Of a stretch of 64,000 nucleotides of DNA, positions 11,781-28,324 are shown one piece after another (position 1 is the first letter of the stretch; each line of letters begins with the position of its first letter). The DNA comes from an uncultured Parcubacteria group bacterium. GTDB taxonomy: Bacteria > Patescibacteriota > Patescibacteriia > UBA9934 > CAMTUG01. Under the pieces are notes generated by a model. It saw only the letters and a list, made by a program, of their open reading frames with translations, was not told the origin of the DNA and searched no databases. The stretch is from assembly GCA_947084965.1 (NCBI GenBank), contig CAMTUG010000001.1, positions 276,206 to 340,205 on the forward strand, in the 5' to 3' direction. Made by a program: the position numbers and the translations under genes.

Positions 11781-13073
11781 GTGATGGCTATGGTTAAAGC
11801 CTTGTTGCGAAAAGTCCTCCCAACATCGTTGCTGAGCCTCTATCACTTCTGCCTTGCTCGGGCGGCAGCGTTTGTTTATGGCAACCCTTCGGAAAAGATG
11901 ATTGTGATTGGTGTCACGGGAACGAGCGGTAAGTCCACCACCGTTTCATTTATCGGGCAGATTTTAGAGCATGCGGGTCATCGGGTGGGATGGACCTCCA
12001 CCGCGACCTTTAAAGTTGGCTCGAAGGAATGGGCCAATGATCGCAAGATGACGAGTCTCGGTCGCTTTCAAACACAAAAGTTGCTCAAGGAGATGGTCAA
12101 CGCGGGTTGCACCCACGCTATTGTCGAAGTGACGTCTCAGGGGATCGTGCAGCACCGCCATCAGGGGATTAATTTTGATGTCGCCGTTTTTACTAATTTG
12201 TGGCCAGAACATATTGAATCGCACGGAAGTTTTGAGAATTACAAGCAAGCCAAGCTGAAGTTATTTCAACACCTGACCGCTCGTCCGCATAAACATCTTT
12301 TCGGAAAAGAAATTCCAAAGGTGATCGTTGCGAACGGCAACGATCCGCACGCCAATGATTTTCTTGCTCATAAGGCCGATCGAAAAGTTGCGTTCGAGGT
12401 AGATCCGGATCTTGAACTTACCGCAGCCGGTGCATCCTTTAGCGCTCTTGGCGTTGAGATGGACCTGCCTATACTCGGCGCCTTCAATGTACAAAATGCT
12501 TTGGCAGCTGCTTCGGTGGCGATGGTGCTCGATGTGCCCGTTTCTATTATTAAAGATGCTGTGGCGCGTTTGCGCGGGGTTCCAGGACGGCTCGAAAGAA
12601 TCGACGAAGGCCAGTCGTTCGGGGTGATCGTTGACTATGCCTTTGAACCTGTGGCCATGAAACGCATCTATGAGACGCTTTCCCTTTTGCCCTACGAACG
12701 GTTGATTCATGTGTTTGGCAGTTGTGGGGGTGGACGGGATGCCGCTCGGCGCCCAATTTTGGGGCGTATGTCTGGGGAGTTTGCTGATATCTGCATCGTC
12801 ACCAACGAAGATCCGTATGATGATGATCCGATGCAGATTATTCGAGAGGTGGCAGCCGGAGCGCGAGAAGTGGGAAAGAAGGATGGCGAAGACCTTTTTG
12901 TGATCGAGGATCGCGGAGAGGCGATTAAGAAAGCGATCCAGATGGCTGCGTCAAATGACCTCGTGCTTGTGACGGGCAAGGGGAGCGAACCTGTTATGGC
13001 GGTCGCTCATGGTAAACTGATCCCGTGGGACGATCGCGTTGAGGTAAGAAAAGCATTGCATGAACGTCAGTAA
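11781..13073 (+). CDS. murE: UDP-N-acetylmuramoyl-tripeptide ligase (MurE-like)
   Basis: GVTGTSGKSTT; C-terminal GRLERIDEGQSFGVIVDYAFEP...FGSCGGGRDAARRP...VTNEDPYDDDP...LVTGKGSE matches the MurE C-terminus. Confidence 0.75.
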   Translation: MMAMVKALLRKVLPTSLLSLYHFCLARAAAFVYGNPSEKMIVIGVTGTSGKSTTVSFIGQILEHAGHRVGWTSTATFKVGSKEWANDRKMTSLGRFQTQKLLKEMVNAGCTHAIVEVTSQGIVQHRHQGINFDVAVFTNLWPEHIESHGSFENYKQAKLKLFQHLTARPHKHLFGKEIPKVIVANGNDPHANDFLAHKADRKVAFEVDPDLELTAAGASFSALGVEMDLPILGAFNVQNALAAASVAMVLDVPVSIIKDAVARLRGVPGRLERIDEGQSFGVIVDYAFEPVAMKRIYETLSLLPYERLIHVFGSCGGGRDAARRPILGRMSGEFADICIVTNEDPYDDDPMQIIREVAAGAREVGKKDGEDLFVIEDRGEAIKKAIQMAASNDLVLVTGKGSEPVMAVAHGKLIPWDDRVEVRKALHERQ

Positions 13074-20644: not shown

Positions 20645-21124
20645 TTATTTTTTGCCCGGAGTCAGGGCGAGCATCCAGCGAATGCGTAATTGAGAAGATT
20701 TTTTGATCCAAGGGAAAGGAAAGTCAAACCAAATGCGCATGAACGTTTCGTGATCCAGGGATCGCCGCTTTCCATTTTCTGGATCAATAAAGATCACACG
20801 CAGATCCGTTACGCCGACAACGACAGAATAATGGCCTTCGTTAACAGAAAACCAGTTAAAAATAACAGGAACGCCTTTTTCACAGTACGCACGTATATCA
20901 GCGATCGTGGAGTGCTTTTTCCATCGCCCGCGAAAACCGTAGTGGTGTGCTGCGGTGAGCATCTGTGAAGGAGATGTTCCGTGGGAAACGGTCGTTTTGG
21001 CGAGGCGGCCAATTTCGCGTTGGGTAGCGACAACTCCATAATACGCGAAGACCATCTGCAGGCTTGCAGGACCACAATACGAGGGATATTGACGATAGGC
21101 GGGAACGTCTAGGTTTTTTGACAT
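20645..21124 (-). CDS. Papain-like C39-type peptidase-domain protein
   Basis: YPSYCGPASLQMVFAYYG catalytic Cys context, with downstream His/Asp-like residues. Confidence 0.5.
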   Translation of the reverse strand: MSKNLDVPAYRQYPSYCGPASLQMVFAYYGVVATQREIGRLAKTTVSHGTSPSQMLTAAHHYGFRGRWKKHSTIADIRAYCEKGVPVIFNWFSVNEGHYSVVVGVTDLRVIFIDPENGKRRSLDHETFMRIWFDFPFPWIKKSSQLRIRWMLALTPGKK

Positions 21125-21136
21125 ACGAAACTCAAA

Positions 21137-21730
21137 TTAGTGCAGTTGTTTCTTTCTGCCGAGGAGGATCGCGGCTACGACGGCAAAGTTACAGATGAAA
21201 ATATAGAACGGGTAGGCGAGGAGGGGGAGGTCAATGACGCCGACAGCTAACAGGCCAAAGAATCCTCCGGTGCCAGAAAGGGCCCAAGTGATTAACGTTT
21301 CGCTCTCTGGATGTTCGTAGGATTTGATGACGGTCAGCCAGGCGCCCATGGCGTCAATCAATACGGTTAAGTAGACGGCGATGACCGCATTATCGGTAAA
21401 GTACCAGATGAGCAACGTTACCGCGGCCGCAAGAAGGGTGATTACATCGCGTTTGAGGAGTCCGCCGAATCCGTAGCGGATCGAGAGGAGAAGAACAATG
21501 ATCACGCCGATCCCTTGAATGCCTGGGAGCCAGAGGGAATGGGTAGCACCCACGGCGAGTTGGGTAAAGAACCCCATGGCAGTGAGCACGCTCCAAATTA
21601 GCCACGACGCACGTTCTGGCCTCACAGTCCCTTTCACGATGGCGATGATGTACGGCGGATAGGAGATCGCACTAAAAACTCCTGCCAGGATGCCGAAAAT
21701 AGCGAGAATGTTCATATAGTTACAACCCAC
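21137..21730 (-). CDS. Hypothetical polytopic membrane protein (~6 TM)
   Basis: Hydrophobic throughout; overlaps the FemAB gene by 11 nt, consistent with an operon. Confidence 0.5.
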   Translation of the reverse strand: MGCNYMNILAIFGILAGVFSAISYPPYIIAIVKGTVRPERASWLIWSVLTAMGFFTQLAVGATHSLWLPGIQGIGVIIVLLLSIRYGFGGLLKRDVITLLAAAVTLLIWYFTDNAVIAVYLTVLIDAMGAWLTVIKSYEHPESETLITWALSGTGGFFGLLAVGVIDLPLLAYPFYIFICNFAVVAAILLGRKKQLH

Positions 21731-22739
21731 GCTTTAAGCGGCGGAACGTTTCGATGGCGAAGTTGAGCCAGTACTTTTTGGTGAGCGGCAGGTCTTGGGC
21801 GTGAACGTACTCTTCGGGGAATCCACCGAATCCTTTTTTGAAAAGCGACAGTCCGGCCCAGGGGTGTTTGGGTTTGTTGTCCGGGGAGATTCCCCAGAAG
21901 TTATAGAGCGTACAGCCCCGGCGCTTGGCTTCTTGAATCGCTCGCCATTGCAAAAGCGATGAGGCGTTCAAGTGAGGGAAGATCTGAAGTGAACCGCTGT
22001 GGTGATAGTAGGCGGAACCGTTGTAGAAGATAATGATCGAGGCGGCGATGATCGTCCCTTGATAGGTGCCAAAGAAAAAGGCGGCCTGGTTGTCTTTAGC
22101 AAAAAGGTCAAACTCTTGTTTGAGGTAGGACTTGCTGAACGGCGTGTAGTGCTGACGATCCGCTGTCGCTTTGTACACTTTCCAAAAATCTTCCATCGCT
22201 TCCGGGTCGGTGCGCATGGTGATTTCGATCCTGTCCTTTTCTGACTTTTTGATCAGGTAGCGTGTTGTTTTGCGCATCTCTTTCAATAGCGTTTCCTCAT
22301 CTTTGGTGATGTCGAGGAGCCAGGAGAGTTCTGGATGCATGTGAATCGGTGCAGGGCGGAATCCTAGTGATGCGTAGAGACTTTTTTCCGTCACGGGTTG
22401 TAGTGGACAGATGCGAATGAAATCGCAGCGCTCGCGTTGTCCGATGTTAAGGAGTTCCTCGACGAGCACCTTGAGAATCCCAGCTGCGTCTGCATCTCTG
22501 GCGACCGTCGGACCGTGTGGACAGAGCAAAAAGGCTCCACGACGGGCGTTAATCTTAATGAGCAGAGCTACAGCCATCAATTGCTCCGCGCGATACACAC
22601 CCAGGCGGAAGATCTTTGATCCTGAGTGCTCGTACTGCAACCCCCATTTCCAGGAATGCAAAAACGTATGCGGACGCTGTTCTTGCATGAACGCTTCCCA
22701 ACGTTGTTCATCCTTTATTTCTGCAACGGAATAGTTCAT
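21720..22739 (-). CDS. FemAB-family aminoacyl-tRNA-dependent peptidyltransferase (FemX/MurM-like)
   Basis: 339 aa with FemAB-like motifs (HSWKWG, LLQWRAIQEAKRRG). Confidence 0.65.
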   Translation of the reverse strand: MNYSVAEIKDEQRWEAFMQEQRPHTFLHSWKWGLQYEHSGSKIFRLGVYRAEQLMAVALLIKINARRGAFLLCPHGPTVARDADAAGILKVLVEELLNIGQRERCDFIRICPLQPVTEKSLYASLGFRPAPIHMHPELSWLLDITKDEETLLKEMRKTTRYLIKKSEKDRIEITMRTDPEAMEDFWKVYKATADRQHYTPFSKSYLKQEFDLFAKDNQAAFFFGTYQGTIIAASIIIFYNGSAYYHHSGSLQIFPHLNASSLLQWRAIQEAKRRGCTLYNFWGISPDNKPKHPWAGLSLFKKGFGGFPEEYVHAQDLPLTKKYWLNFAIETFRRLKRGL

Positions 22740-23935
22740 ACCTCGTGTTGAGTGGCAAACCAGGCGTTCACTTCGCGTACAATGCGCTCGGCGTCGGCCT
22801 TGGAGATCGAACGGTGCGTCGGTAAGTTGAGAATCTGCTCAGAAACGAACTCCGACTGCGGGCACGTCCCGGTATAATCGGTCAGGTACATGTATTTTTT
22901 AGGTGCGATTGGAGCATCGTACCAAATGTCGCTGATGTAGATACGGCGCTTGCGCAGATAGGTGATCAGACCTTCTCGCTGTTTTACGAGAATCGGGAAG
23001 CGCAGATAGATCGCATCGTTATGATTCGCGGCTAACATTAAAAGATCTTTGCTAAGACCTGATTGATATATTTCGGTAATCATCTTGCGATGCGTAATCA
23101 TCTTCGGAAGAACGGTGTATTCATGCATCGCTTGCACGGTGTACCAACTCGGAAGTTCGTGCGCTTCGACCGTCATGCCAGGAGGAAGAGGTTTGGAAAG
23201 CAGATGCAAGGATCGGCAGACTTTGTGAAGTAGTTTCCCAATACCTAGCGCATGAGTGAGCCGAATTTTATAGGTGAGGGTCGGATAAAAACGATCGCGC
23301 AGTTGCTGTGAGCGAGAGATCTGTTTTGCTGGAGCGTGCGTTTTGTCGCTGTACTGCTTCGAACGGGTGATCAGCGCGCCGCCGGAAACGGCATCAATCA
23401 CTTTGTCTTGGCTAAACGAAAGGATCGTGAAGTCGCCGATCGTTCCGGCTTCTTCACCAGATGTGTATTGAACGCCGATCGAATGAGCCAAGTCCTCGAT
23501 CAACACCAACTGTTTTGATCGACAGAACTCGGCGATCTCTCGCGCTTCACACGGCTCGCCAAGCGTATTTTGAATGATGACAACGGTGATATCTGGGTTT
23601 GCTTCCACGGCGGTTTTCAACGCATCAAGGGAGAAGTTCAGCGAACCTGGTTCAATATCGAGGAGCTCGGCACGATATCCGCTGTTCACAATGGCCTGAT
23701 AGACGGCATAACAGGTGAAGCCGTTGATGATGACCGTACTTCCAGGCTTAGTGATTTTATTCAGAGCGAGGGCGATCGCTTCGCGGCCTTTGTAGGTGAG
23801 GGTCACTTCGCCGCCATAGCGTGACGATAAGAAATCAATAAAGCGCTGGCGTCTGGCCGGTGTGCCAACAGCCAGAAACGTTCGCCAAGCGTCGAAGAAT
23901 CCGTAGTTTGATCCGAGAGAGTTGAAGATGCTCAT
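22736..23935 (-). CDS. DegT/DnrJ/EryC1/StrS-family PLP-dependent aminotransferase (nucleotide-sugar aminotransferase-like)
   Basis: ILSFSQDKVIDAVSGGALITRS (PLP-lysine context), DLAHSIG, overall DegT-like. Confidence 0.7.
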   Translation of the reverse strand: MSIFNSLGSNYGFFDAWRTFLAVGTPARRQRFIDFLSSRYGGEVTLTYKGREAIALALNKITKPGSTVIINGFTCYAVYQAIVNSGYRAELLDIEPGSLNFSLDALKTAVEANPDITVVIIQNTLGEPCEAREIAEFCRSKQLVLIEDLAHSIGVQYTSGEEAGTIGDFTILSFSQDKVIDAVSGGALITRSKQYSDKTHAPAKQISRSQQLRDRFYPTLTYKIRLTHALGIGKLLHKVCRSLHLLSKPLPPGMTVEAHELPSWYTVQAMHEYTVLPKMITHRKMITEIYQSGLSKDLLMLAANHNDAIYLRFPILVKQREGLITYLRKRRIYISDIWYDAPIAPKKYMYLTDYTGTCPQSEFVSEQILNLPTHRSISKADAERIVREVNAWFATQHEV

Positions 23936-23936
23936 A

Positions 23937-24623
23937 CTAGGCGAGCTCCTGAATGATCTGTTCAGCGACAACTTCCGGATGCGTAACGTGTGGGGAGTGT
24001 CGCGCATTTGGAATCACAAAAAGCTTTGAATTCTCAATCGATCGGTGCATCAACTCACCGTCACTAAGCGGGGTGCTGCCGTCGTTCGCGCCCCAAATGA
24101 GGAGTGTTGGTGCTTTGATGCTTGATAAAACGGAACGCAGATCAACGCCGATCAGGTTAGCCATCGTTTTGCGCATGGCGGGACTTGCCTTCTCATAATC
24201 GCGTTCGCGGGCGGCACGATAGAGAAGTTTGCGTAGGCGATCGGATGAACTGAAGAGCTTTCCGACTTTGGCGAGGAGCCAAAAGACGCTGCGCTTGATG
24301 CGAATTTTTAAACCGTTCGGATAGATCCCGGCGCTGTCGATCAAAATCAATCGCTCAACTTTTTCTGGATATCGTGAAGCAAAAGCGATCGAGATGCGCC
24401 CGCCGTTTGAGTGGCCGACTAAGATGACCTTCTCTTCGTCTTTGAGTTCTGACTTCAACCAATCAACGTAATCATCGAGCGTCCAGGTGCGATCGGTGCC
24501 GTCGGTTAAGCCCGGAACGGGCAACAATTGCGAATCAATCCCGCTTTGCTTAAGCAGGGCGATGAGCGGATTCCAGGTGTCGGTGGTGTACGTCCAACCG
24601 TGGAGGATGTAAATCTTTTTCAT
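23937..24623 (-). CDS. Alpha/beta-fold hydrolase
   Basis: HGW...VGHSNGG nucleophile elbow, with Asp and His in the C-terminal part. Confidence 0.65.
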   Translation of the reverse strand: MKKIYILHGWTYTTDTWNPLIALLKQSGIDSQLLPVPGLTDGTDRTWTLDDYVDWLKSELKDEEKVILVGHSNGGRISIAFASRYPEKVERLILIDSAGIYPNGLKIRIKRSVFWLLAKVGKLFSSSDRLRKLLYRAARERDYEKASPAMRKTMANLIGVDLRSVLSSIKAPTLLIWGANDGSTPLSDGELMHRSIENSKLFVIPNARHSPHVTHPEVVAEQIIQELA

Positions 24624-25894
24624 AATGACCACTGCTTACGGCGAATCTGCCAGATCTGTTCGCGGCGGCAGAGCTTGTTTACATCGTCAGGGGAGGCAAG
24701 GAGATGTTCGATGACCCCTTCGAGGAATCGCGCGCCCTTAAATAGCAAAACCTCATCGCCTTTGATCGCAGACGAAAGATAATCAAGTGCGTCCTTCGGT
24801 TGGATGAATGATTCAATGTGCACTCCACGTTCTTCAAGTTCAGCTAACTTTGGCAGAGTGTACTTGGTGAGGCGTGGACCGACAAGAATGATCTGTTCGA
24901 AGTCGCTATCCACCAGGAGTTCAGCGAGGCCTTCGTGCTCGGTTTGCTCCTGTTCACCTTGCTCGATCAGATCACCAAGGATCGCCCACTTTTTTTCTGC
25001 TCGAAGTTGATTGACCATCGATACAATGACAGAGACAGAAGCGAGGTTGGCGTTATAGCTGCTGTCGATGATCGTTGTGTTTTTGATTCCAGCAAACAAC
25101 GAGCTCCGTCCTGGGGGCATGACAAGGCGTGAGAAGTGTTCGTCCGTTTGCTGTCCAAAGTATTCACAAATAACAGGCGTGGCAGCGATCGCATAGAACG
25201 TTTCTTTTGGAAGAAGATAGGGGAGATGATACGCGCGCCCACTGATCACAAATCCTGTCCCGGTCGTGGCAACGGAATATTCTTCGAGGTGGTCATCCTC
25301 GCGCACTTCGCGCCATTCGGCGGTCGTGCGTTTTTTCTGATCAACGATTAGTTTGTTGTCACCGTTCGTGATAACGAGTTTTGATGCCTGTTCGACGAAA
25401 TACCCAAACTCGTAGGCGATCGCCTCGTCTACGTTAGTAAACTTTCCTGTGCGCAGTAATTTTTCAAACTGCTGGCTGTGCGTTCGAGCACAGCTGAGCC
25501 AGATAACAATTTCTGGCTTGAGTAAAGCACTCAGGAAGCGACCTTCTCCTGGACGTTCCGCATCGGCTTCGACAACATAGATTTTCTCTGTCGGCGGTTT
25601 TTTCCAGGCCCGAATCGGAGCGAGAAGAAAAAGACCGATCCACTCAACGGGAGAAAACGTCGTACGTTTCAACCCGAGAATATCAAACGGAATTCCGTAA
25701 GTGCTGTTAGCGTGATGAGAATACTTGGCCGCTGTCTGCAGCTGCGATTCGAGCAGATGGAGGGCGGTCGTCTTTCCGTTTGATCCGGTAACAACAACAA
25801 TGCGCGGCTTCCAGAGGTGCAATTGAATCAACGCGCAATACTTAAAATAATGCGCGATAAAAAAATACAGTTTGTGCTTGATTTTCCTGAACAT
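24620..25894 (-). CDS. murF: Mur-ligase-family protein, MurF-like (lacks N-terminal domain; hydrophobic N-terminus)
   Basis: VVTGSNGKTT P-loop. C-terminal IIDSSYNANLASV...ILGDLIEQGEQE...LLFKGARF resembles MurF DDSYNAN...GDMAELG. Confidence 0.55.
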   Translation of the reverse strand: MFRKIKHKLYFFIAHYFKYCALIQLHLWKPRIVVVTGSNGKTTALHLLESQLQTAAKYSHHANSTYGIPFDILGLKRTTFSPVEWIGLFLLAPIRAWKKPPTEKIYVVEADAERPGEGRFLSALLKPEIVIWLSCARTHSQQFEKLLRTGKFTNVDEAIAYEFGYFVEQASKLVITNGDNKLIVDQKKRTTAEWREVREDDHLEEYSVATTGTGFVISGRAYHLPYLLPKETFYAIAATPVICEYFGQQTDEHFSRLVMPPGRSSLFAGIKNTTIIDSSYNANLASVSVIVSMVNQLRAEKKWAILGDLIEQGEQEQTEHEGLAELLVDSDFEQIILVGPRLTKYTLPKLAELEERGVHIESFIQPKDALDYLSSAIKGDEVLLFKGARFLEGVIEHLLASPDDVNKLCRREQIWQIRRKQWSL

Positions 25895-25967
25895 TTCGGC
25901 TGGTTATAGCCCCCCCGTGAACACCCTAAACCTTTCAGAGAATAACAGAATTCGAGCATTTTGACCA

Positions 25968-26025
25968 CAAAAATCAGAAGCCGCCCTCGGGAGAGTGTGT
26001 CGCGAAGGCGACTTCCGAGAGCGGC
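25968..26025 (-). terminator. Rho-independent terminator of the GC-rich Zn-ribbon cassette gene
   Basis: On the minus strand, gccgctctcgg...ccgagggcggc followed by ttctgatttttg. Confidence 0.55.
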
Positions 26026-26035
26026 GTGAGCCGGG

Positions 26036-26329
26036 TCAGTGGTAGAGGATGGTCGGATCGTCCGAACCGTCCGTGCCGGTGGTGGCGACCCTCCAGGCTC
26101 GGAGGATGCGTTGTAGTACCTCGTCTGGTTCGGCGGCCTTCGGCGTGACCGGAGGGTTCGAGGGCGTCATCGCGGCGTATCGATGACCGCAGTCCTCGCA
26201 GACGTACTCCGTCGTTGGGCGATCCGCCCCGAAGTTCACGATCTCCACGAGCTGGGTGTTCCGTCGCGGGCACCAGTCGCAGTCGCCGGTACACAGAGGG
26301 TTGCTCTGAAGCAGGCGGGTCTTAGACAT
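26036..26329 (-). CDS. Small Cys-rich zinc-ribbon protein, extreme GC3, inserted inside the operon
   Basis: GGAG SD 5 nt upstream. CTGDCDWC...CEDCGHRY forms two CxxC pairs. Almost all third positions are G/C. A putative TTGACG-17-TATTCC promoter lies in the 3' end of the RimK gene. Confidence 0.65.
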   Translation of the reverse strand: MSKTRLLQSNPLCTGDCDWCPRRNTQLVEIVNFGADRPTTEYVCEDCGHRYAAMTPSNPPVTPKAAEPDEVLQRILRAWRVATTGTDGSDDPTILYH

Positions 26330-26355
26330 GAGGTCTCCTGGTTGAACTAGGAATA

Positions 26356-27252
26356 TCAGTTTCGATTGAGGCCGTCAACTGTTTTGACAGCAAAGTCAAC
26401 GATCGCGCCAGCGACATCGACGCCCGATGCGCGTTCTAATTCTTCAAATCCTGGATTGGCGTTGACTTCGATCACCAGCGGTCCTCGTTTTGAGCGAAGG
26501 ATATCGACGCCGGCGATTTCAAGGCTGAACGCTTTTGCCGCCTCGATCGCCATGCGCATCTCTTCTTCTGTCAGTTCAACCGCTGTGCCAACTCCACCAA
26601 GCGACGCGTTGGCACGAACGTCACCGATGATTGCGGTGCGTTCCATCGCTGCAATCACTTGGTCACCAACAACAAAGGCGCGCAGATCTTTGCGACCCGC
26701 TTCGGCGATAAACTCCTCAACGATGATCGGGTTTTTGTCACGAATATGTAAATATTCAACGATCGGGGAGAGCGTTTCCACGTTCTCGGCGTAAAAAATC
26801 CCTTTGCCGTGGGTACCGAAGGCAACTTTTAAAATGATCGGATAGCCGATTTTGGCCGCCTCCGCTCGGGCATGATCCGAGGTGCGGCAGATCGCCCAGC
26901 GCGGCATGGCCACGCCAGCACGCGAGAGAATGAAATGTTGCGCCAGCTTATTTTTGGCGATCCCTCCGAGCGGGGAGTGGTTGATCACGCGAAAACCAAG
27001 AGCAACGAGCGCGTCCGTCGTAACGGCGTGCAAGCTCGGCTCTTCGACGAACCCTGGTCGGTTAATAATCACATCGAGCTTCGGTAACTCAGCTCCCATG
27101 TGCGTGACGATGCCTCCGGCGATGACGATCTCCGGCTCATGGAGCATCGTCACCTCGTGTCCCATCGCTCGTGCGGCCTGAATCAACCGCGGTGCGAGCG
27201 CTGGGTCGTCGATCTGTTTTGGGCGGCCGCTGGTTAAGATTCCAATGTGCAT
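26356..27252 (-). CDS. RimK-family ATP-grasp ligase (alpha-L-glutamate ligase-like)
   Basis: ATP-grasp motifs (GYPIILKVAFGTHGKGIFY, EEFI...GRKDLRAFVVGDQVIAAMER, GVDILRSKRGPLVIEVNANPGF). Confidence 0.75.
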   Translation of the reverse strand: MHIGILTSGRPKQIDDPALAPRLIQAARAMGHEVTMLHEPEIVIAGGIVTHMGAELPKLDVIINRPGFVEEPSLHAVTTDALVALGFRVINHSPLGGIAKNKLAQHFILSRAGVAMPRWAICRTSDHARAEAAKIGYPIILKVAFGTHGKGIFYAENVETLSPIVEYLHIRDKNPIIVEEFIAEAGRKDLRAFVVGDQVIAAMERTAIIGDVRANASLGGVGTAVELTEEEMRMAIEAAKAFSLEIAGVDILRSKRGPLVIEVNANPGFEELERASGVDVAGAIVDFAVKTVDGLNRN

Positions 27253-27257
27253 AATGT

Positions 27258-27379
27258 GGATCTTTAGAAAACTGCGTCTTTTCGTTTCACGGGTCCCGTC
27301 GACCCACTCAACGTAGAATCCCTACGTCTCGCGGGCTCGACACCCGTTCAACGAAAATACATCAGTTTTCTAAAGATCC
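27258..27379. repeat. 122-nt imperfect palindromic long-hairpin element, family copy E2
   Basis: Perfect 17-bp terminal inverted repeats ggatctttagaaaactg / cagttttctaaagatcc. Apical hairpin acgtag-aatcc-ctacgt. Inner motif ccgtcgacccactcaacgta is similar to E1 ccccgacgactcctcaacgta. Confidence 0.7.
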
Positions 27380-28324
27380 AAGAGCTAGTTCGAGATCTTC
27401 GATCGTCGAGATCGCGTGGAGTTTTTCGCGCATCATTTTGGCTCCGGGCAGGCCTTTGAAGTACCACATCAAATGCTTCCGGAAAGAGACGATCCCTTTG
27501 GGGCCGTACTGTTCAACGTGAAGTTCTGCATGACGGCGGATGACGCGCAGGCGTTCTTCAAAGCTCACTGGTGTTGGTGTTTTCCCATTCAATATTTCGT
27601 GCATCTGCGAAAAGATCCACGGATTGCCGAGCGCTCCGCGGGCGATCAGTACGCCGTCGCAGCCGGACGCTCTGAGCGCTTCGGGCATCAACTCGGCTTT
27701 ATGAATGTCACCGTTACACAATACAGGAATCGACACGGCAGACTTTACCTTACCAACCTGCACCCAATCAGCGGTACCAGAATAGCCTTGCATTTTCGTG
27801 CGTCCATGAACGGTGATCAGATCAGCTCCGGCCGCTTCAAGCACCTTAGCAAACTCCACGCACTGTTCAGGGTCGTTCCATCCAAGACGGATTTTGACTG
27901 AAAGTGGAACGTTGATCACCGCCTTCATCGCTTTTATAATCTCGCCGGCTAACTTTGGTTCTTTCATCAGCGCCGCGCCATTAAAGTTGTGGACGATTTT
28001 ATACACCGGGCATCCCATGTTGATGTCGAACCCTTCCGGGTTATGCTCAGCCGCGATGATCCGTGCCGACTCGGCCATCGTGGCCGGGTCGCTTCCAAAG
28101 ATCTGCTGCACCAAAGGCCGTTCCGCTGGGTGAATCTCGGTCATCCCGAGCGTTTTGTCCGATCCGCGTACCACCGCTTCGGCCGAAACCATCTCACGAA
28201 ATTCAACCAAGTTCACTTCCGGAGGAGTGACTTCGCGCACCACGCGACAAAAGGCCGAGTCGGTCATGTCGGCCATCGGCGAAAGCGCAATGATCGGGCG
28301 TGGGAGAGATTTCCAATCGAGCAT
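27362..28324 (-). CDS. tRNA-dihydrouridine synthase (DusB-like)
   Basis: ALSPMADMTDSAFCRV, TIM-barrel FMN motifs, catalytic-Cys region NMGCPV. Confidence 0.8.
   Translation of the reverse strand: MLDWKSLPRPIIALSPMADMTDSAFCRVVREVTPPEVNLVEFREMVSAEAVVRGSDKTLGMTEIHPAERPLVQQIFGSDPATMAESARIIAAEHNPEGFDINMGCPVYKIVHNFNGAALMKEPKLAGEIIKAMKAVINVPLSVKIRLGWNDPEQCVEFAKVLEAAGADLITVHGRTKMQGYSGTADWVQVGKVKSAVSIPVLCNGDIHKAELMPEALRASGCDGVLIARGALGNPWIFSQMHEILNGKTPTPVSFEERLRVIRRHAELHVEQYGPKGIVSFRKHLMWYFKGLPGAKMMREKLHAISTIEDLELALGSLEN

What the first reader, a model, noticed from the sequence alone, without database searches (positions are those of the whole stretch)
20645..27252. Minus-strand operon combining RimK ATP-grasp ligase, MurF-like Mur ligase, alpha/beta hydrolase, DegT aminotransferase, FemAB tRNA-dependent aminoacyltransferase, a membrane protein and a C39-like peptidase
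Seven backbone genes overlap by 1-13 nt or abut, which is the signature of one transcription unit. They are preceded by the long-hairpin element at 27258-27379.

The enzyme set points to a peptide-decorated amino-sugar or a non-canonical peptidoglycan stem or bridge:
- Two ATP-dependent amide-bond ligases of different superfamilies (ATP-grasp and Mur ligase).
- A tRNA-dependent aminoacyl transferase (FemAB).
- A sugar-nucleotide aminotransferase (DegT).
- A papain-like peptidase that could trim or cross-link the product.

No D-Ala-D-Ala ligase (also ATP-grasp) is visible in the window. The RimK-like gene sits directly upstream of the MurF-like gene, so an alternative dipeptide donor for MurF is conceivable. 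A foreign GC-rich zinc-ribbon gene has been inserted between the ATP-grasp and Mur-ligase genes without breaking the operon. This is a candidate novel cell-envelope modification pathway.
Basis: partly seen in the sequence, partly recalled or inferred. Interest (0 to 1): 0.75.

Follow-up and report, generated by a model that had tools for sequence, protein, structure and literature searches.

The report
Conserved murF-linked cell-wall cassette in CPR bacteria
Four of the flagged genes (a short MurF, a hydrolase, a PLP enzyme and a tRNA-dependent Fem transferase) form a cassette conserved across many ultra-small CPR bacteria; it sits exactly where sister genomes carry the D-Ala-D-Ala genes ddl-alr, so it may be an undescribed way of completing the cell-wall precursor.

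Summary
The genes and domain calls are real, but the seven-gene operon is a composite.

**Core.** The conserved unit is four genes, 21720-25894 (-): short MurF, alpha/beta-hydrolase, DegT-family PLP enzyme, FemAB-family transferase.
- It keeps the same order, mostly with overlapping junctions, in 73 of 80 species-level CPR genome loci and in many metagenome loci.
- DegT and FemAB are fused in some lineages.
- A second gene order (ABH-MurF-DegT-FemAB, often after LysRS and SerRS) occurs in another Parcubacteria clade.
- In some genomes it lies inside dcw clusters, between murF and mraY.

**Not part of it.** RimK, the GC-rich Zn-ribbon ORF, the membrane protein and the C39-like peptidase appear in 0 of about 147 related loci. 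A terminator-like hairpin separates RimK/Zn-ribbon from murF.

**Key result.** In genomes with identical flanks (DnaB-murF-[X]-maf), X is either this cassette or ddl-alr, never both. This holds in at least three lineages. Five MurF residues invariant in cassette genomes change in the ddl genomes. The Fem enzyme lacks the Lys/Arg that bind peptidoglycan precursors in characterised Fem enzymes.

**Best reading (about 0.5).** The cassette supplies the unit MurF adds, replacing Ddl/Alr. The rival is a FemX-type branch. Genome-wide absence of ddl could not be tested.

The parts
24620..25894 (-). Short-form MurF: Mur ligase central and C-terminal domains. The N-terminal UDP-binding domain is replaced by one long helix (residues 2-28). 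First gene of the conserved cassette.
   Evidence: - Pfam PF08245 and PF02875. Best NCBIfam model is murF TIGR01143, 128.7 bits, below the 288.6 cut-off.
- PDB sequence hits are MurF only.
- AF2 model: pLDDT 88.8. The top 10 Foldseek PDB hits are all MurF, TM-score up to 0.72.
- More than 1500 homologues at 50-75% identity, all about 420 aa; those that carry a taxon name are almost all CPR.
- It sits in the murF slot of dcw clusters.
23937..24623 (-). Alpha/beta-hydrolase of about 228 aa with an intact Ser-Asp-His triad. Second cassette gene. Its start ATG overlaps the murF stop codon (ATGA).
   Evidence: - Pfam Abhydrolase_1/6.
- Triad S75/D184/H212 is essentially invariant in 97 orthologues of both cassette types (one His->Lys).
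- Nearest solved relatives are small carboxylesterases/lipases and BioH.
- Present directly after murF in 72 of 80 loci.
22736..23935 (-). DegT/DnrJ/EryC1-family PLP enzyme (399 aa). Third cassette gene. Fused to the FemAB gene in Kaiserbacteria/Nomurabacteria-like relatives.
   Evidence: - PF01041, 133.8 bits. No NCBIfam equivalog cut-off is reached.
- PLP Lys178 and Asp148 are invariant in 75 orthologues.
- The subfamily has 436 representatives at E <= 1e-30. Fused forms of 706-743 aa recur.
- Fusions of 733-807 aa are seen.
21720..22739 (-). FemAB-family (aminoacyl-tRNA-dependent) transferase, 339 aa. Fourth cassette gene.
   Evidence: - PF02388, 135 bits.
- Profile-to-PDB hits: FemX_Sa 119 bits, FemA 93 bits, FemX_Wv 72 bits.
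- The catalytic Phe-Lys pair (F300-K301) is invariant.
- The columns of FemX_Wv Lys36 and Arg211 hold H/Q/N/Y and an almost invariant Phe (71 of 74).
25967..26018 (-). Terminator-like hairpin plus U-run between the Zn-ribbon ORF and murF. It marks a likely transcript boundary.
   Evidence: Fold of 25960-26040(-): a long GC-rich stem of about 18 pairs followed by UGAUUUUUG. dG -38.6 kcal/mol, z = -5.0, and 0 of 200 shuffles fold as well.
21137..21715 (-). Membrane protein of about 192 aa with no family match. Tightly packed after FemAB, but private to this lineage.
   Evidence: No Pfam or NCBIfam hit. Gene call in L001. No tblastn hit in 147 related loci.
20645..21124 (-). Stand-alone C39-like papain-fold peptidase, 159 aa. 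Last gene of the tight array. Private to this lineage.
   Evidence: - PF13529 at 58 bits and PF03412 at 52 bits.
- Best solved relative is the pseudomurein endoisopeptidase PeiR (8z4h, E = 8e-7), then ComA/PCAT C39 domains.
- Absent from 147 related loci.
26356..27252 (-). RimK-family alpha-L-glutamate ligase. An upstream neighbour, not part of the conserved cassette.
   Evidence: - TIGR00768 scores 207 bits against a cut-off of 143. Ddl models score about 29 bits against 243-246.
- Best PDB hit is E. coli RimK, 148 bits.
- Absent from all related loci.
26036..26329 (-). GC-rich 97-aa ORF with Cys pairs (Zn-ribbon-like). No family membership.
   Evidence: GC 64.3% and GC3 79.6%. Only sub-threshold Pfam hits. 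No relatives in the fetched loci.

Best explanation
**The unit.** The real functional unit is a four-gene, CPR-wide cassette at 21720-25894: murF(short)-ABH-DegT-like-FemAB-like. It belongs to cytoplasmic peptidoglycan-precursor synthesis and is mechanistically tied to the MurF step.

**Most likely function.** The three companion enzymes make or deliver the amino-acid or dipeptide unit that MurF ligates to UDP-MurNAc-tripeptide. In other words, they do the job that Ddl plus Alr do in other bacteria.

**Proposed steps (inferred, not shown):**
1. An aminoacyl-tRNA (Ala, Ser or Gly; SerRS and LysRS are adjacent in one clade) donates its acyl group. The Fem-like enzyme transfers it to the alpha-amine of a second small acceptor, either a free or a tRNA-bound amino acid.
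2. The PLP enzyme sets the D-configuration, or supplies a D-amino acid, by Calpha epimerisation or transamination.
3. The esterase-type hydrolase releases or proof-reads the ester-linked intermediate.
4. MurF adds the product.

**What is shown:** conservation, gene coupling, intact active sites, the in-situ alternation with ddl-alr, and MurF residues that co-vary with the partner system.

**In this window:** the cassette is followed by two lineage-private riders (membrane protein, C39-like peptidase). It is preceded by an unrelated RimK/Zn-ribbon unit.
For: 1. **Conservation.** MurF->ABH->DegT->FemAB lie on the same strand and are contiguous in 73 of 80 GTDB species loci. These span Levy-, Davies-, Roizman-, Kaiser-, Nomura-, Kerfeld-, Doudna- and Colwellbacteria. 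No other gene cluster occurs in more than 22 loci. Junctions mostly overlap. DegT-FemAB fusions occur.
2. **Second architecture.** Another Parcubacteria clade has (LysRS-x-SerRS-)ABH-MurF_long-DegT-FemAB(-FtsQ).
3. **dcw context.** Relatives carry PBP-MurE-MurC-MurB-MurA-[cassette]-MraY-MurL-MurD-FtsW-MurG. No ddl or alr lies within +-10 kb of the cassette, in these large clusters or in any other cassette locus.
4. **In-situ alternation.** The flanks c18-c19-c20-c21-DnaB-MurF-[X]-Maf-...-c33-c34-c35 are the same across this group. X is ABH-DegT-FemAB in L031, L052, L059 and L078. X is Ddl-Alr in L082 and L085. L089 and L160 have DnaB-MurF-Ddl. Across the fetched MurF-bearing loci that extend past murF, none has both, within 10 kb of the cassette.
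   - Ddl-type loci fall in at least 3 places in the MurF tree.
   - They are as close to cassette genomes as cassette genomes are to each other: DnaB identity 78.8% against 75.9%.
5. **MurF co-variation.** R341, P366, A388, R389 and R418 are 100% conserved in 76 cassette-type MurFs. They change in at least 5 of 6 Ddl-type MurFs. All five lie in the C-terminal, substrate-binding domain.
6. **Fem acceptor site.** The Fem enzyme keeps the catalytic Phe-Lys pair. It lacks the Lys36 and Arg211 equivalents that FemX_Wv, FemX_Sa and FemA share.
7. **Active sites.** The catalytic residues of all three companion enzymes are invariant or nearly so.
Against: - Genome-wide absence of ddl/alr in cassette-bearing genomes was not testable here. 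Only +-10 kb around each locus was seen. If ddl is elsewhere, the substitution idea falls.
- Fem enzymes are known only to transfer L-aminoacyl or glycyl groups to peptidoglycan precursors or natural-product amines. There is no precedent for building a MurF dipeptide this way.
- The hydrolase has no assigned step beyond analogy.
- In a Saccharimonadales locus (L091) a DegT homologue, 41% identical to the type-2 cassette DegT, sits directly upstream of ddl-alr. The PLP enzyme is therefore not simply an Alr substitute.
- Canonical MurF also carries Arg at the R389 position, so the co-varying residues may mark a protein-protein interface rather than substrate specificity.
- The NJ tree used to count independent swaps is crude.
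Confidence: 0.5

Rival explanations
1. FemX-type branching. MurF is the ordinary D-Ala-D-Ala-adding enzyme, fed by a ddl located elsewhere. The Fem-like enzyme adds an L-amino acid or Gly from aminoacyl-tRNA to the position-3 diamino acid of UDP-MurNAc-pentapeptide. The PLP enzyme and the hydrolase modify or trim that branch, for example by L-to-D conversion of the N-terminal residue.
For: - Membership of the FemAB family above the Pfam cut-off, with nearest solved relatives FemX and FemA.
- The position directly after murF, whose product is the FemX_Wv substrate, and before mraY.
- Metagenome papers already list 'femX' among Patescibacteria peptidoglycan genes (PMC12992704).
- The window MurE lacks the DAP-type DNPR motif (it has NEDPY), so a Lys- or Orn-type stem that could carry a branch is possible.
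Against: - It does not explain why the slot is occupied by ddl-alr exactly when the cassette is missing, in at least three lineages with identical flanks.
- It does not explain why MurF C-terminal-domain invariants are lost in those lineages.
- The Lys36 and Arg211 equivalents, listed among the precursor-binding residues of FemX_Wv (PMC8280954) and conserved in FemX_Sa and FemA, are replaced by H/Q/N/Y and an almost invariant Phe.
- It gives no role for a universally co-conserved, sometimes fused, PLP enzyme and a hydrolase.
Confidence: 0.25
2. Amino-sugar decoration. The DegT-like enzyme aminates a keto-sugar nucleotide derived from UDP-GlcNAc or UDP-MurNAc. The Fem-like GNAT-fold enzyme then N-aminoacylates the new amine, analogous to PseC/PseH or PglE/PglD pairs. 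The Mur ligase and the hydrolase extend or edit the product. This is essentially the first reader's 'peptide-decorated amino-sugar'.
For: - DegT-family membership, with best NCBIfam and PDB relatives among sugar aminotransferases.
- The aminotransferase-then-acyltransferase order and the fusions.
- GlmS and GlmU are neighbours in type-2 and Saccharimonadales loci.
Against: - No dehydratase or dehydrogenase that could make the keto-sugar is co-conserved in about 140 loci.
- The Mur ligase is the only MurF candidate in the dcw clusters examined (L081, L140). In sister genomes the same family pairs with Ddl.
- The Fem-like enzyme lacks the precursor-binding Lys and Arg expected for a nucleotide-sugar acceptor.
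- No equivalog cut-off for any sugar aminotransferase is reached.
Confidence: 0.1
3. One seven- or eight-gene operon in which RimK makes an alternative dipeptide for the MurF-like ligase and the C39 peptidase trims or cross-links the product.
For: All genes are co-directional and close together. No ddl is present in the window. The C39-like protein weakly resembles a cell-wall endoisopeptidase.
Against: - RimK, the Zn-ribbon ORF, the membrane protein and the C39 peptidase are absent from all about 147 related loci, including the locus whose MurF is 75% identical (L002) and loci whose FemAB is 60-64% identical.
- A terminator-like hairpin lies between the Zn-ribbon ORF and murF.
- RimK scores as a RimK-type glutamate ligase, not as Ddl.
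Confidence: 0.03

Closest known systems
murF-ddl(-alr) segment of the dcw cluster: Ddl (ATP-grasp) plus Alr (PLP racemase) feeding MurF
   Same: - The same MurF step.
- The same chromosomal slot: DnaB-murF-[X]-maf.
- The same logic of a peptide-bond-forming enzyme plus a PLP enzyme next to murF.
- Sister genomes carry ddl-alr exactly where this cassette lies.
   Different: No ATP-grasp enzyme and no fold-type III racemase. Instead there is a Fem-family tRNA-dependent transferase, a fold-type I DegT-like PLP enzyme and an extra alpha/beta-hydrolase. MurF lacks its N-terminal domain.
FemX (Weissella viridescens) / FemXAB (S. aureus) / MurMN peptidoglycan branch transferases
   Same: Pfam FemAB family and the double-GNAT fold family. 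The catalytic Phe-Lys motif is conserved. The gene is located among mur genes.
   Different: - The Lys36 and Arg211 equivalents are replaced.
- It scores far below the FemX equivalog model (45.9 bits against a cut-off of 500).
- It is always coupled, and sometimes fused, to a PLP enzyme and linked to a hydrolase and MurF. No characterised Fem system has this arrangement.
MurT/GatD (lipid II isoglutamine synthase)
   Same: A Mur-ligase paralogue without the N-terminal UDP-binding domain that works with a dedicated partner enzyme encoded next to it.
   Different: The window protein is closest to MurF, not MurT, by HMM and by fold: MurF TM-score 0.72, MurT 0.41-0.60. The partners are unrelated to GatD.
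MurD2/MurL alternative route to the D-Glu residue (Xanthomonadales type)
   Same: A precedent that a stereochemical step of stem-peptide synthesis can be replaced by a non-orthologous, murein-cluster-encoded enzyme. A MurL homologue sits in a CPR dcw cluster next to this cassette (L081).
   Different: It concerns position 2 (D-Glu), not the terminal dipeptide. The enzyme families are unrelated.
PLP enzymes acting on aminoacyl-tRNA (SepCysS, SelA)
   Same: Fold-type I PLP enzymes. Weak NCBIfam hits of the DegT-like protein to SepCysS models (E = 7e-5 and 5e-3). A conceptual precedent for PLP chemistry on a tRNA-bound amino acid.
   Different: The hits are far below cut-offs, and the protein is clearly DegT-family. 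This is an analogy only. It is recalled from general knowledge and was not tested.

Membership tests
MurF (UDP-MurNAc-tripeptide--D-Ala-D-Ala ligase) | Mur ligase central ATPase domain with P-loop, plus the C-terminal domain | tested here: met
   PF08245 and PF02875. The P-loop is TGSNGKTT. The DSSYNAN and GDLxEQG motifs are conserved.
MurF (UDP-MurNAc-tripeptide--D-Ala-D-Ala ligase) | Closer to MurF than to any other Mur ligase, by sequence and by fold | tested here: met
   The best NCBIfam model is murF. The only PDB sequence hits are MurF. The top 10 Foldseek hits are MurF, TM-score up to 0.72.
MurF (UDP-MurNAc-tripeptide--D-Ala-D-Ala ligase) | Reaches the curated family score | tested here: not met
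   TIGR01143 scores 128.7 bits against a cut-off of 288.6.
MurF (UDP-MurNAc-tripeptide--D-Ala-D-Ala ligase) | N-terminal UDP-MurNAc-binding domain | tested here: not met
   The P-loop starts at residue 36. In the AF2 model residues 2-28 form one helix. The window MurE is N-terminally short as well.
MurF (UDP-MurNAc-tripeptide--D-Ala-D-Ala ligase) | Occupies the murF position of dcw clusters, or is adjacent to ddl | tested here: met
   L081, L087 and L029 have murA-E ... [this gene] ... mraY. L082, L085, L089 and L160 have this gene followed by ddl.
MurF (UDP-MurNAc-tripeptide--D-Ala-D-Ala ligase) | Adds D-Ala-D-Ala to UDP-MurNAc-tripeptide | not testable with these tools
   Needs an enzymatic assay.
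Fem aminoacyl-tRNA transferases of peptidoglycan (FemX/FemA/FemB/MurM) | FemAB Pfam family above the gathering score | tested here: met
   PF02388 scores 135.1 bits against a cut-off of 24.
Fem aminoacyl-tRNA transferases of peptidoglycan (FemX/FemA/FemB/MurM) | Catalytic Phe304-Lys305 (FemX_Wv) equivalents | tested here: met
   F300-K301 is invariant in 74 orthologues.
Fem aminoacyl-tRNA transferases of peptidoglycan (FemX/FemA/FemB/MurM) | Precursor-binding Lys36 and Arg211 (FemX_Wv), conserved in FemX_Sa and FemA | tested here: not met
   The two columns hold H/Q/N/Y and Phe (71 of 74). The residue list is from PMC8280954. The alignment is at about 20% identity, so this is suggestive rather than proof.
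Fem aminoacyl-tRNA transferases of peptidoglycan (FemX/FemA/FemB/MurM) | Use of aminoacyl-tRNA as donor | not testable with these tools
   The only context hint is that SerRS and LysRS are adjacent in 10-11 type-2 loci.
DegT/DnrJ/EryC1 sugar aminotransferases | Family HMM plus the PLP-binding Lys and Asp | tested here: met
   PF01041 scores 133.8 bits. K178 and D148 are invariant.
DegT/DnrJ/EryC1 sugar aminotransferases | Partner enzyme that makes the keto-sugar substrate, encoded nearby | tested here: not met
   No dehydratase or dehydrogenase cluster recurs in 80 + 67 loci.
DegT/DnrJ/EryC1 sugar aminotransferases | Reaches a curated equivalog score (PseC, LegC, WecE, ArnB ...) | tested here: not met
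   The best is LegC-family at 89 bits against a cut-off of 420.
D-Ala-D-Ala ligase (for the RimK-like gene) | Ddl family HMM score | tested here: not met
   TIGR01205 scores 28.6 bits against 245.65. The protein passes RimK-family TIGR00768 (207 bits against 143).
C39 bacteriocin-processing peptidase | C39 domain fused to an ABC exporter | tested here: not met
   The protein is a stand-alone 159 aa. The PF13529 and PF03412 domain hits are above cut-off. No ABC transporter is adjacent.

The most novel reading that the evidence does not exclude
Most Microgenomates and Parcubacteria may have no Ddl or Alr at all. They would build the terminal unit of the peptidoglycan stem peptide by an ATP-grasp-independent route:
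- The Fem-like enzyme forms the peptide bond from aminoacyl-tRNA.
- The DegT-like PLP enzyme provides the D-stereochemistry.
- The esterase releases the product.
- A co-adapted, N-domain-less MurF installs it.

The product could be D-Ala-D-Ala or a different terminus. The MurF C-terminal invariants that are lost when Ddl takes over hint at the latter.
Probability: 0.4. Interest if true: 0.92.

Novelty: new variant of a known kind. Interest (0 to 1): 0.8.

Why it matters
**If the cassette replaces Ddl/Alr.** A step of peptidoglycan synthesis treated as near-universal, and targeted by D-cycloserine and indirectly by vancomycin, would have a non-orthologous, tRNA-dependent alternative in a large fraction of bacterial diversity.
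- It would change how CPR cell walls are modelled.
- It would predict altered antibiotic and lysozyme/amidase susceptibilities.
- It would link wall synthesis to the aminoacyl-tRNA pool in organisms that scavenge amino acids from hosts.
- It would add a new reaction type for Fem and DegT enzymes.

**If the rival is right.** An obligatory PLP- and hydrolase-assisted Fem branch conserved across CPR would still be an undescribed wall chemistry.

**Practical consequences.**
- The short 'Mur ligase family protein' or 'cyanophycin synthetase' annotations in CPR genomes should read MurF.
- 'femX' calls in Patescibacteria MAGs should not be taken as evidence of ordinary cross-bridges.

Tried and rejected
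- **Consensus promoter/terminator scan of 19.5-28.6 kb.** Counts were at chance level and uninformative. The terminator-like hairpin was found only by folding the gap.
- **Literature.** Nine full-text searches for the cassette, for CPR plus ddl/alr, and for DegT plus FemAB plus Mur ligase found nothing specific. The only relevant text was a passing 'murA-G, femX, mraY' in a Patescibacteria MAG paper.
- **Genome-level ddl test by contig-length fingerprints.** None of the 120 best Ddl hits sits on a contig length known to carry the cassette, apart from the Ddl-type loci themselves. The list is too shallow to count as evidence.
- **MurE specificity motif, to exclude a Lys-type branch.** The window MurE has NEDPY, neither DNPR nor the Lys type. 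Inconclusive.
- **RimK as a Ddl substitute.** Rejected.
- **The Mur ligase as CphA, MurT or FolC.** Rejected by HMM and by fold ranking.
- **Copies of the long hairpin elsewhere in the window.** None found.
- **Rfam.** Only four tRNAs.
- **AF2 for the DegT-like protein.** Not run. Only sequences returned by the search for homologous proteins may be aligned, and none were available for it.

Full report
**Observation**

The minus-strand ORFs exist as described, and the domain calls hold.
- 26356-27252 is a RimK-family ATP-grasp ligase. TIGR00768 scores 207 bits against a cut-off of 143. The Ddl models score only about 29 bits.
- 26036-26329 is a 97-aa Cys-rich ORF with no family.
- 24620-25894 has Mur_ligase_M and Mur_ligase_C. 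Its best model is murF (128.7 bits, cut-off 288.6).
- 23937-24632 is an alpha/beta-hydrolase.
- 22736-24007 is DegT-family. The likely start is 23935.
- 21720-22739 is FemAB-family.
- 21137-21730 is a membrane protein with no family.
- 20645-21124 is a C39-like peptidase.

The upstream gene is dusB.

Tight packing holds only from murF to the C39 gene: an ATGA overlap, a 1-nt gap, a 4-nt overlap, a 4-nt gap and a 12-nt gap. Between the Zn-ribbon ORF and murF lie 141 nt. They fold into a strong hairpin followed by UGAUUUUUG (dG -38.6 kcal/mol, z = -5.0). RimK and the Zn-ribbon ORF are therefore probably a separate transcript.

The Zn-ribbon ORF is compositionally foreign, with GC3 of 80%. The long hairpin between dusB and rimK is real (dG -76 kcal/mol, z = -11) and single-copy in the window.

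The window has no ddl or alr. It does contain ftsW, murG, uppS, murD, murE, murC and murB.

**Which genes belong together**

The Mur ligase has more than 1500 homologues. They are about 420 aa long and 50-75% identical; the few that carry a taxon name are almost all from Patescibacteria/CPR.

Neighbourhoods of six homologues showed the same four genes each time: Mur ligase, hydrolase, DegT, FemAB. DegT and FemAB were fused in some.

A scan of one genome per GTDB species returned 80 loci from Levy-, Davies-, Roizman-, Kaiser-, Nomura-, Kerfeld-, Doudna- and Colwellbacteria.
- tblastn and ORF clustering show the four genes in the same order and strand in 73 loci. The exceptions are contig ends and four special loci.
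- No other gene family is present in more than 22 loci.
- RimK, the Zn-ribbon ORF, the membrane protein and the C39 peptidase have no hit in any of the 80 loci.
- They also have no hit in 67 metagenome loci found with the window's FemAB, including loci whose FemAB is 60-64% identical.

The unit is therefore four genes. The other four are private neighbours of this lineage.

**A second architecture**

The metagenome loci revealed another arrangement in a different Parcubacteria clade: ABH, a long MurF (about 540 aa, TIGR01143 223-243 bits), DegT, FemAB. It is preceded in 10-11 loci by SerRS, and two genes further up by LysRS, and it is followed by an FtsQ-like gene. In L140 it is embedded in murC-murB-murA-glmU-glmS-[cassette]-mraY-ftsW-murG.

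Identities between the two types are 43% for FemAB, 33% for ABH and 26% for DegT. The two MurFs are barely alignable. The association of the four activities is therefore older than the gene order, and older than the MurF subtype.

**The Mur ligase is MurF**

- In L081 the order is PBP-MurE-MurC-MurB-MurA-[this gene-ABH-DegT-FemAB]-MraY-MurL-MurD-FtsW-MurG.
- It is the only MurF candidate there, and it sits in the murF slot. L087 and L029 are similar.
- Its only solved sequence relatives are MurF.
- An AF2 model (pLDDT 88.8) gives MurF structures as the ten best Foldseek hits, with TM-scores up to 0.72.
- The N-terminal UDP-binding domain is replaced by one helix, residues 2-28.

**The key result**

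The four genome loci without the cassette (L049, L082, L085, L086) have a bona fide ddl directly after murF instead (NF002528, 448 bits). In two of them alr follows.

In the Levybacteria-like group the flanks are identical: c18-c19-c20-c21-DnaB-MurF-[X]-Maf-...-c33-c34-c35.
- X is ABH-DegT-FemAB in L031, L052, L059 and L078.
- X is Ddl-Alr in L082 and L085.
- Two further loci reached through Ddl (L089 Roizmanbacteria; L160, a 739-kb contig) show DnaB-MurF-Ddl.

The Ddl-type genomes are as close to the cassette genomes as those are to each other. DnaB identity is 78.8% against 75.9%. They fall in at least three places in an NJ tree of MurF.

Ddl or Alr homologues occur in none of the cassette loci within +-10 kb. 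That includes nine loci with three or more other peptidoglycan genes, and five large dcw clusters.

This is the pattern of in-situ non-orthologous displacement.

**Supporting details**

Five MurF positions are 100% conserved in 76 cassette-type sequences: R341, P366, A388, R389 and R418. All lie in the C-terminal domain. They are changed in at least five of the six Ddl-type sequences, for example FKGARF to FKGSQF or FKGSKP.

The Fem-like enzyme keeps the catalytic Phe-Lys pair. The columns of FemX_Wv Lys36 and Arg211 are a different matter. Both are listed among the precursor-binding residues of FemX_Wv in PMC8280954, and both are Lys/Arg in FemX_Sa and FemA. In this family they hold H/Q/N/Y and Phe, the latter in 71 of 74 sequences.

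The hydrolase triad is essentially invariant (one His->Lys in 97 sequences), and the PLP Lys/Asp are invariant, in both cassette types. The DegT subfamily is distinct, with 436 representatives at E <= 1e-30.

**Interpretation**

*Shown:*
- A CPR-wide, MurF-centred four-gene cassette with intact active sites.
- Its location in peptidoglycan gene clusters.
- Mutual exclusivity with ddl(-alr) at the locus level.
- MurF residues that track the partner system.

*Inferred:* the cassette provides the unit MurF adds, in place of Ddl and Alr. The Fem-like enzyme would form a peptide bond from aminoacyl-tRNA onto a small acceptor. The PLP enzyme would provide D-stereochemistry. The esterase-type hydrolase would release or edit an ester intermediate. 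I give this about 0.5.

*Main weaknesses:*
- Genome-wide absence of ddl could not be checked.
- There is no biochemical precedent.
- A Saccharimonadales locus has a homologue of the type-2 DegT directly upstream of ddl-alr. The PLP enzyme is therefore not simply an Alr equivalent.

*Rivals:*
- An ordinary FemX-type branch with accessory enzymes (about 0.25). It fits the family label. It does not explain the alternation with ddl, the MurF co-variation or the missing Lys/Arg.
- An aminoacylated amino-sugar pathway (about 0.1). It lacks any keto-sugar-forming partner.
Conservation contradicts it.

**Comparison with what is known**

The closest known systems are:
- the murF-ddl-alr segment of dcw clusters (same slot and step, different enzymes);
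- FemX/FemABX/MurMN (same family, different conserved acceptor residues and obligatory partners);
- MurT/GatD (an N-domain-less Mur ligase with a partner);
- MurD2/MurL (a precedent for replacing a stereochemical step of stem-peptide synthesis; a MurL homologue lies next to the cassette in L081).

Nine full-text searches found no description of the cassette.

**Verdict**

The finding is real but mis-delimited. Its core is more interesting than proposed. It is a widely conserved, apparently undescribed peptidoglycan-precursor module that may substitute for Ddl/Alr. A phyletic census of ddl in cassette-bearing complete genomes would settle the main question quickly.

Noticed in passing
window 27253-27385 (-): A 120-nt near-perfect long hairpin (dG -76 kcal/mol, z = -11.4) spans the dusB stop codon to just upstream of the rimK ATG. 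Its outer stem re-uses the last codons of dusB. It is single-copy in the window.
   Followed up: partly
window 26036-26329 (-): A 97-aa Cys-pair ORF with GC 64% and GC3 80%, in a locus of 49-56% GC. It has no family and no relatives in 147 related loci. It lies downstream of a RimK-family ligase, an arrangement reminiscent of LysX/LysW, but its C-terminus (..TILYH) is not acidic.
   Followed up: partly
window 20645-21124 (-): The best solved relative of the stand-alone C39-like peptidase is the pseudomurein endoisopeptidase PeiR of a methanogen prophage (8z4h, E = 8e-7). It has no signal peptide and follows a family-less membrane protein.
   Followed up: partly
L115, L116, L119, L120, L124, L127, L129, L132, L147, L149 (e.g. 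L129:2825-11023): In the second cassette architecture, LysRS and SerRS sit immediately upstream: PBP2-x-LysRS-x-SerRS-ABH-MurF-DegT-FemAB-FtsQ. Aminoacyl-tRNA synthetase genes inside a dcw-like cluster are unusual and may point to the tRNA donors.
   Followed up: partly
L081:14195-16803: A MurL homologue (UDP-MurNAc-L-Ala-L-Glu epimerase; NF041275 at 397 bits, below the 700 cut-off) followed by MurD, in a CPR dcw cluster. This suggests the Xanthomonadales-type L-Glu route also occurs in Patescibacteria.
   Followed up: no
L091:8760-12201: A Saccharimonadales locus has GlmS-DegT'-Ddl-Alr. DegT' is 41% identical to the type-2 cassette DegT. The PLP enzyme therefore stays linked to D-Ala-D-Ala genes even without the Fem enzyme and the hydrolase.
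   Followed up: partly
window 11781-13073 (+): MurE also lacks its N-terminal domain: the profile match starts at model position 69. It has NEDPY where DAP-type enzymes have DNPR, so the position-3 residue of this organism's stem peptide is unclear.
   Followed up: partly
L002:1-9892: In the closest relative (MurF 75% identical), the DNA upstream of murF is a serine recombinase plus a helicase/AAA defence-like island instead of RimK and the Zn-ribbon ORF. The region 5' of murF is a variable insertion site.
   Followed up: no
L022, L024, L026, L029, L032, L039 and others; L085: Many TPA 'binchicken' assemblies titled 'uncultured Gammaproteobacteria', and one titled 'Limnocylindrales', carry typical CPR gene content and synteny. 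The organism labels look wrong.
   Followed up: no
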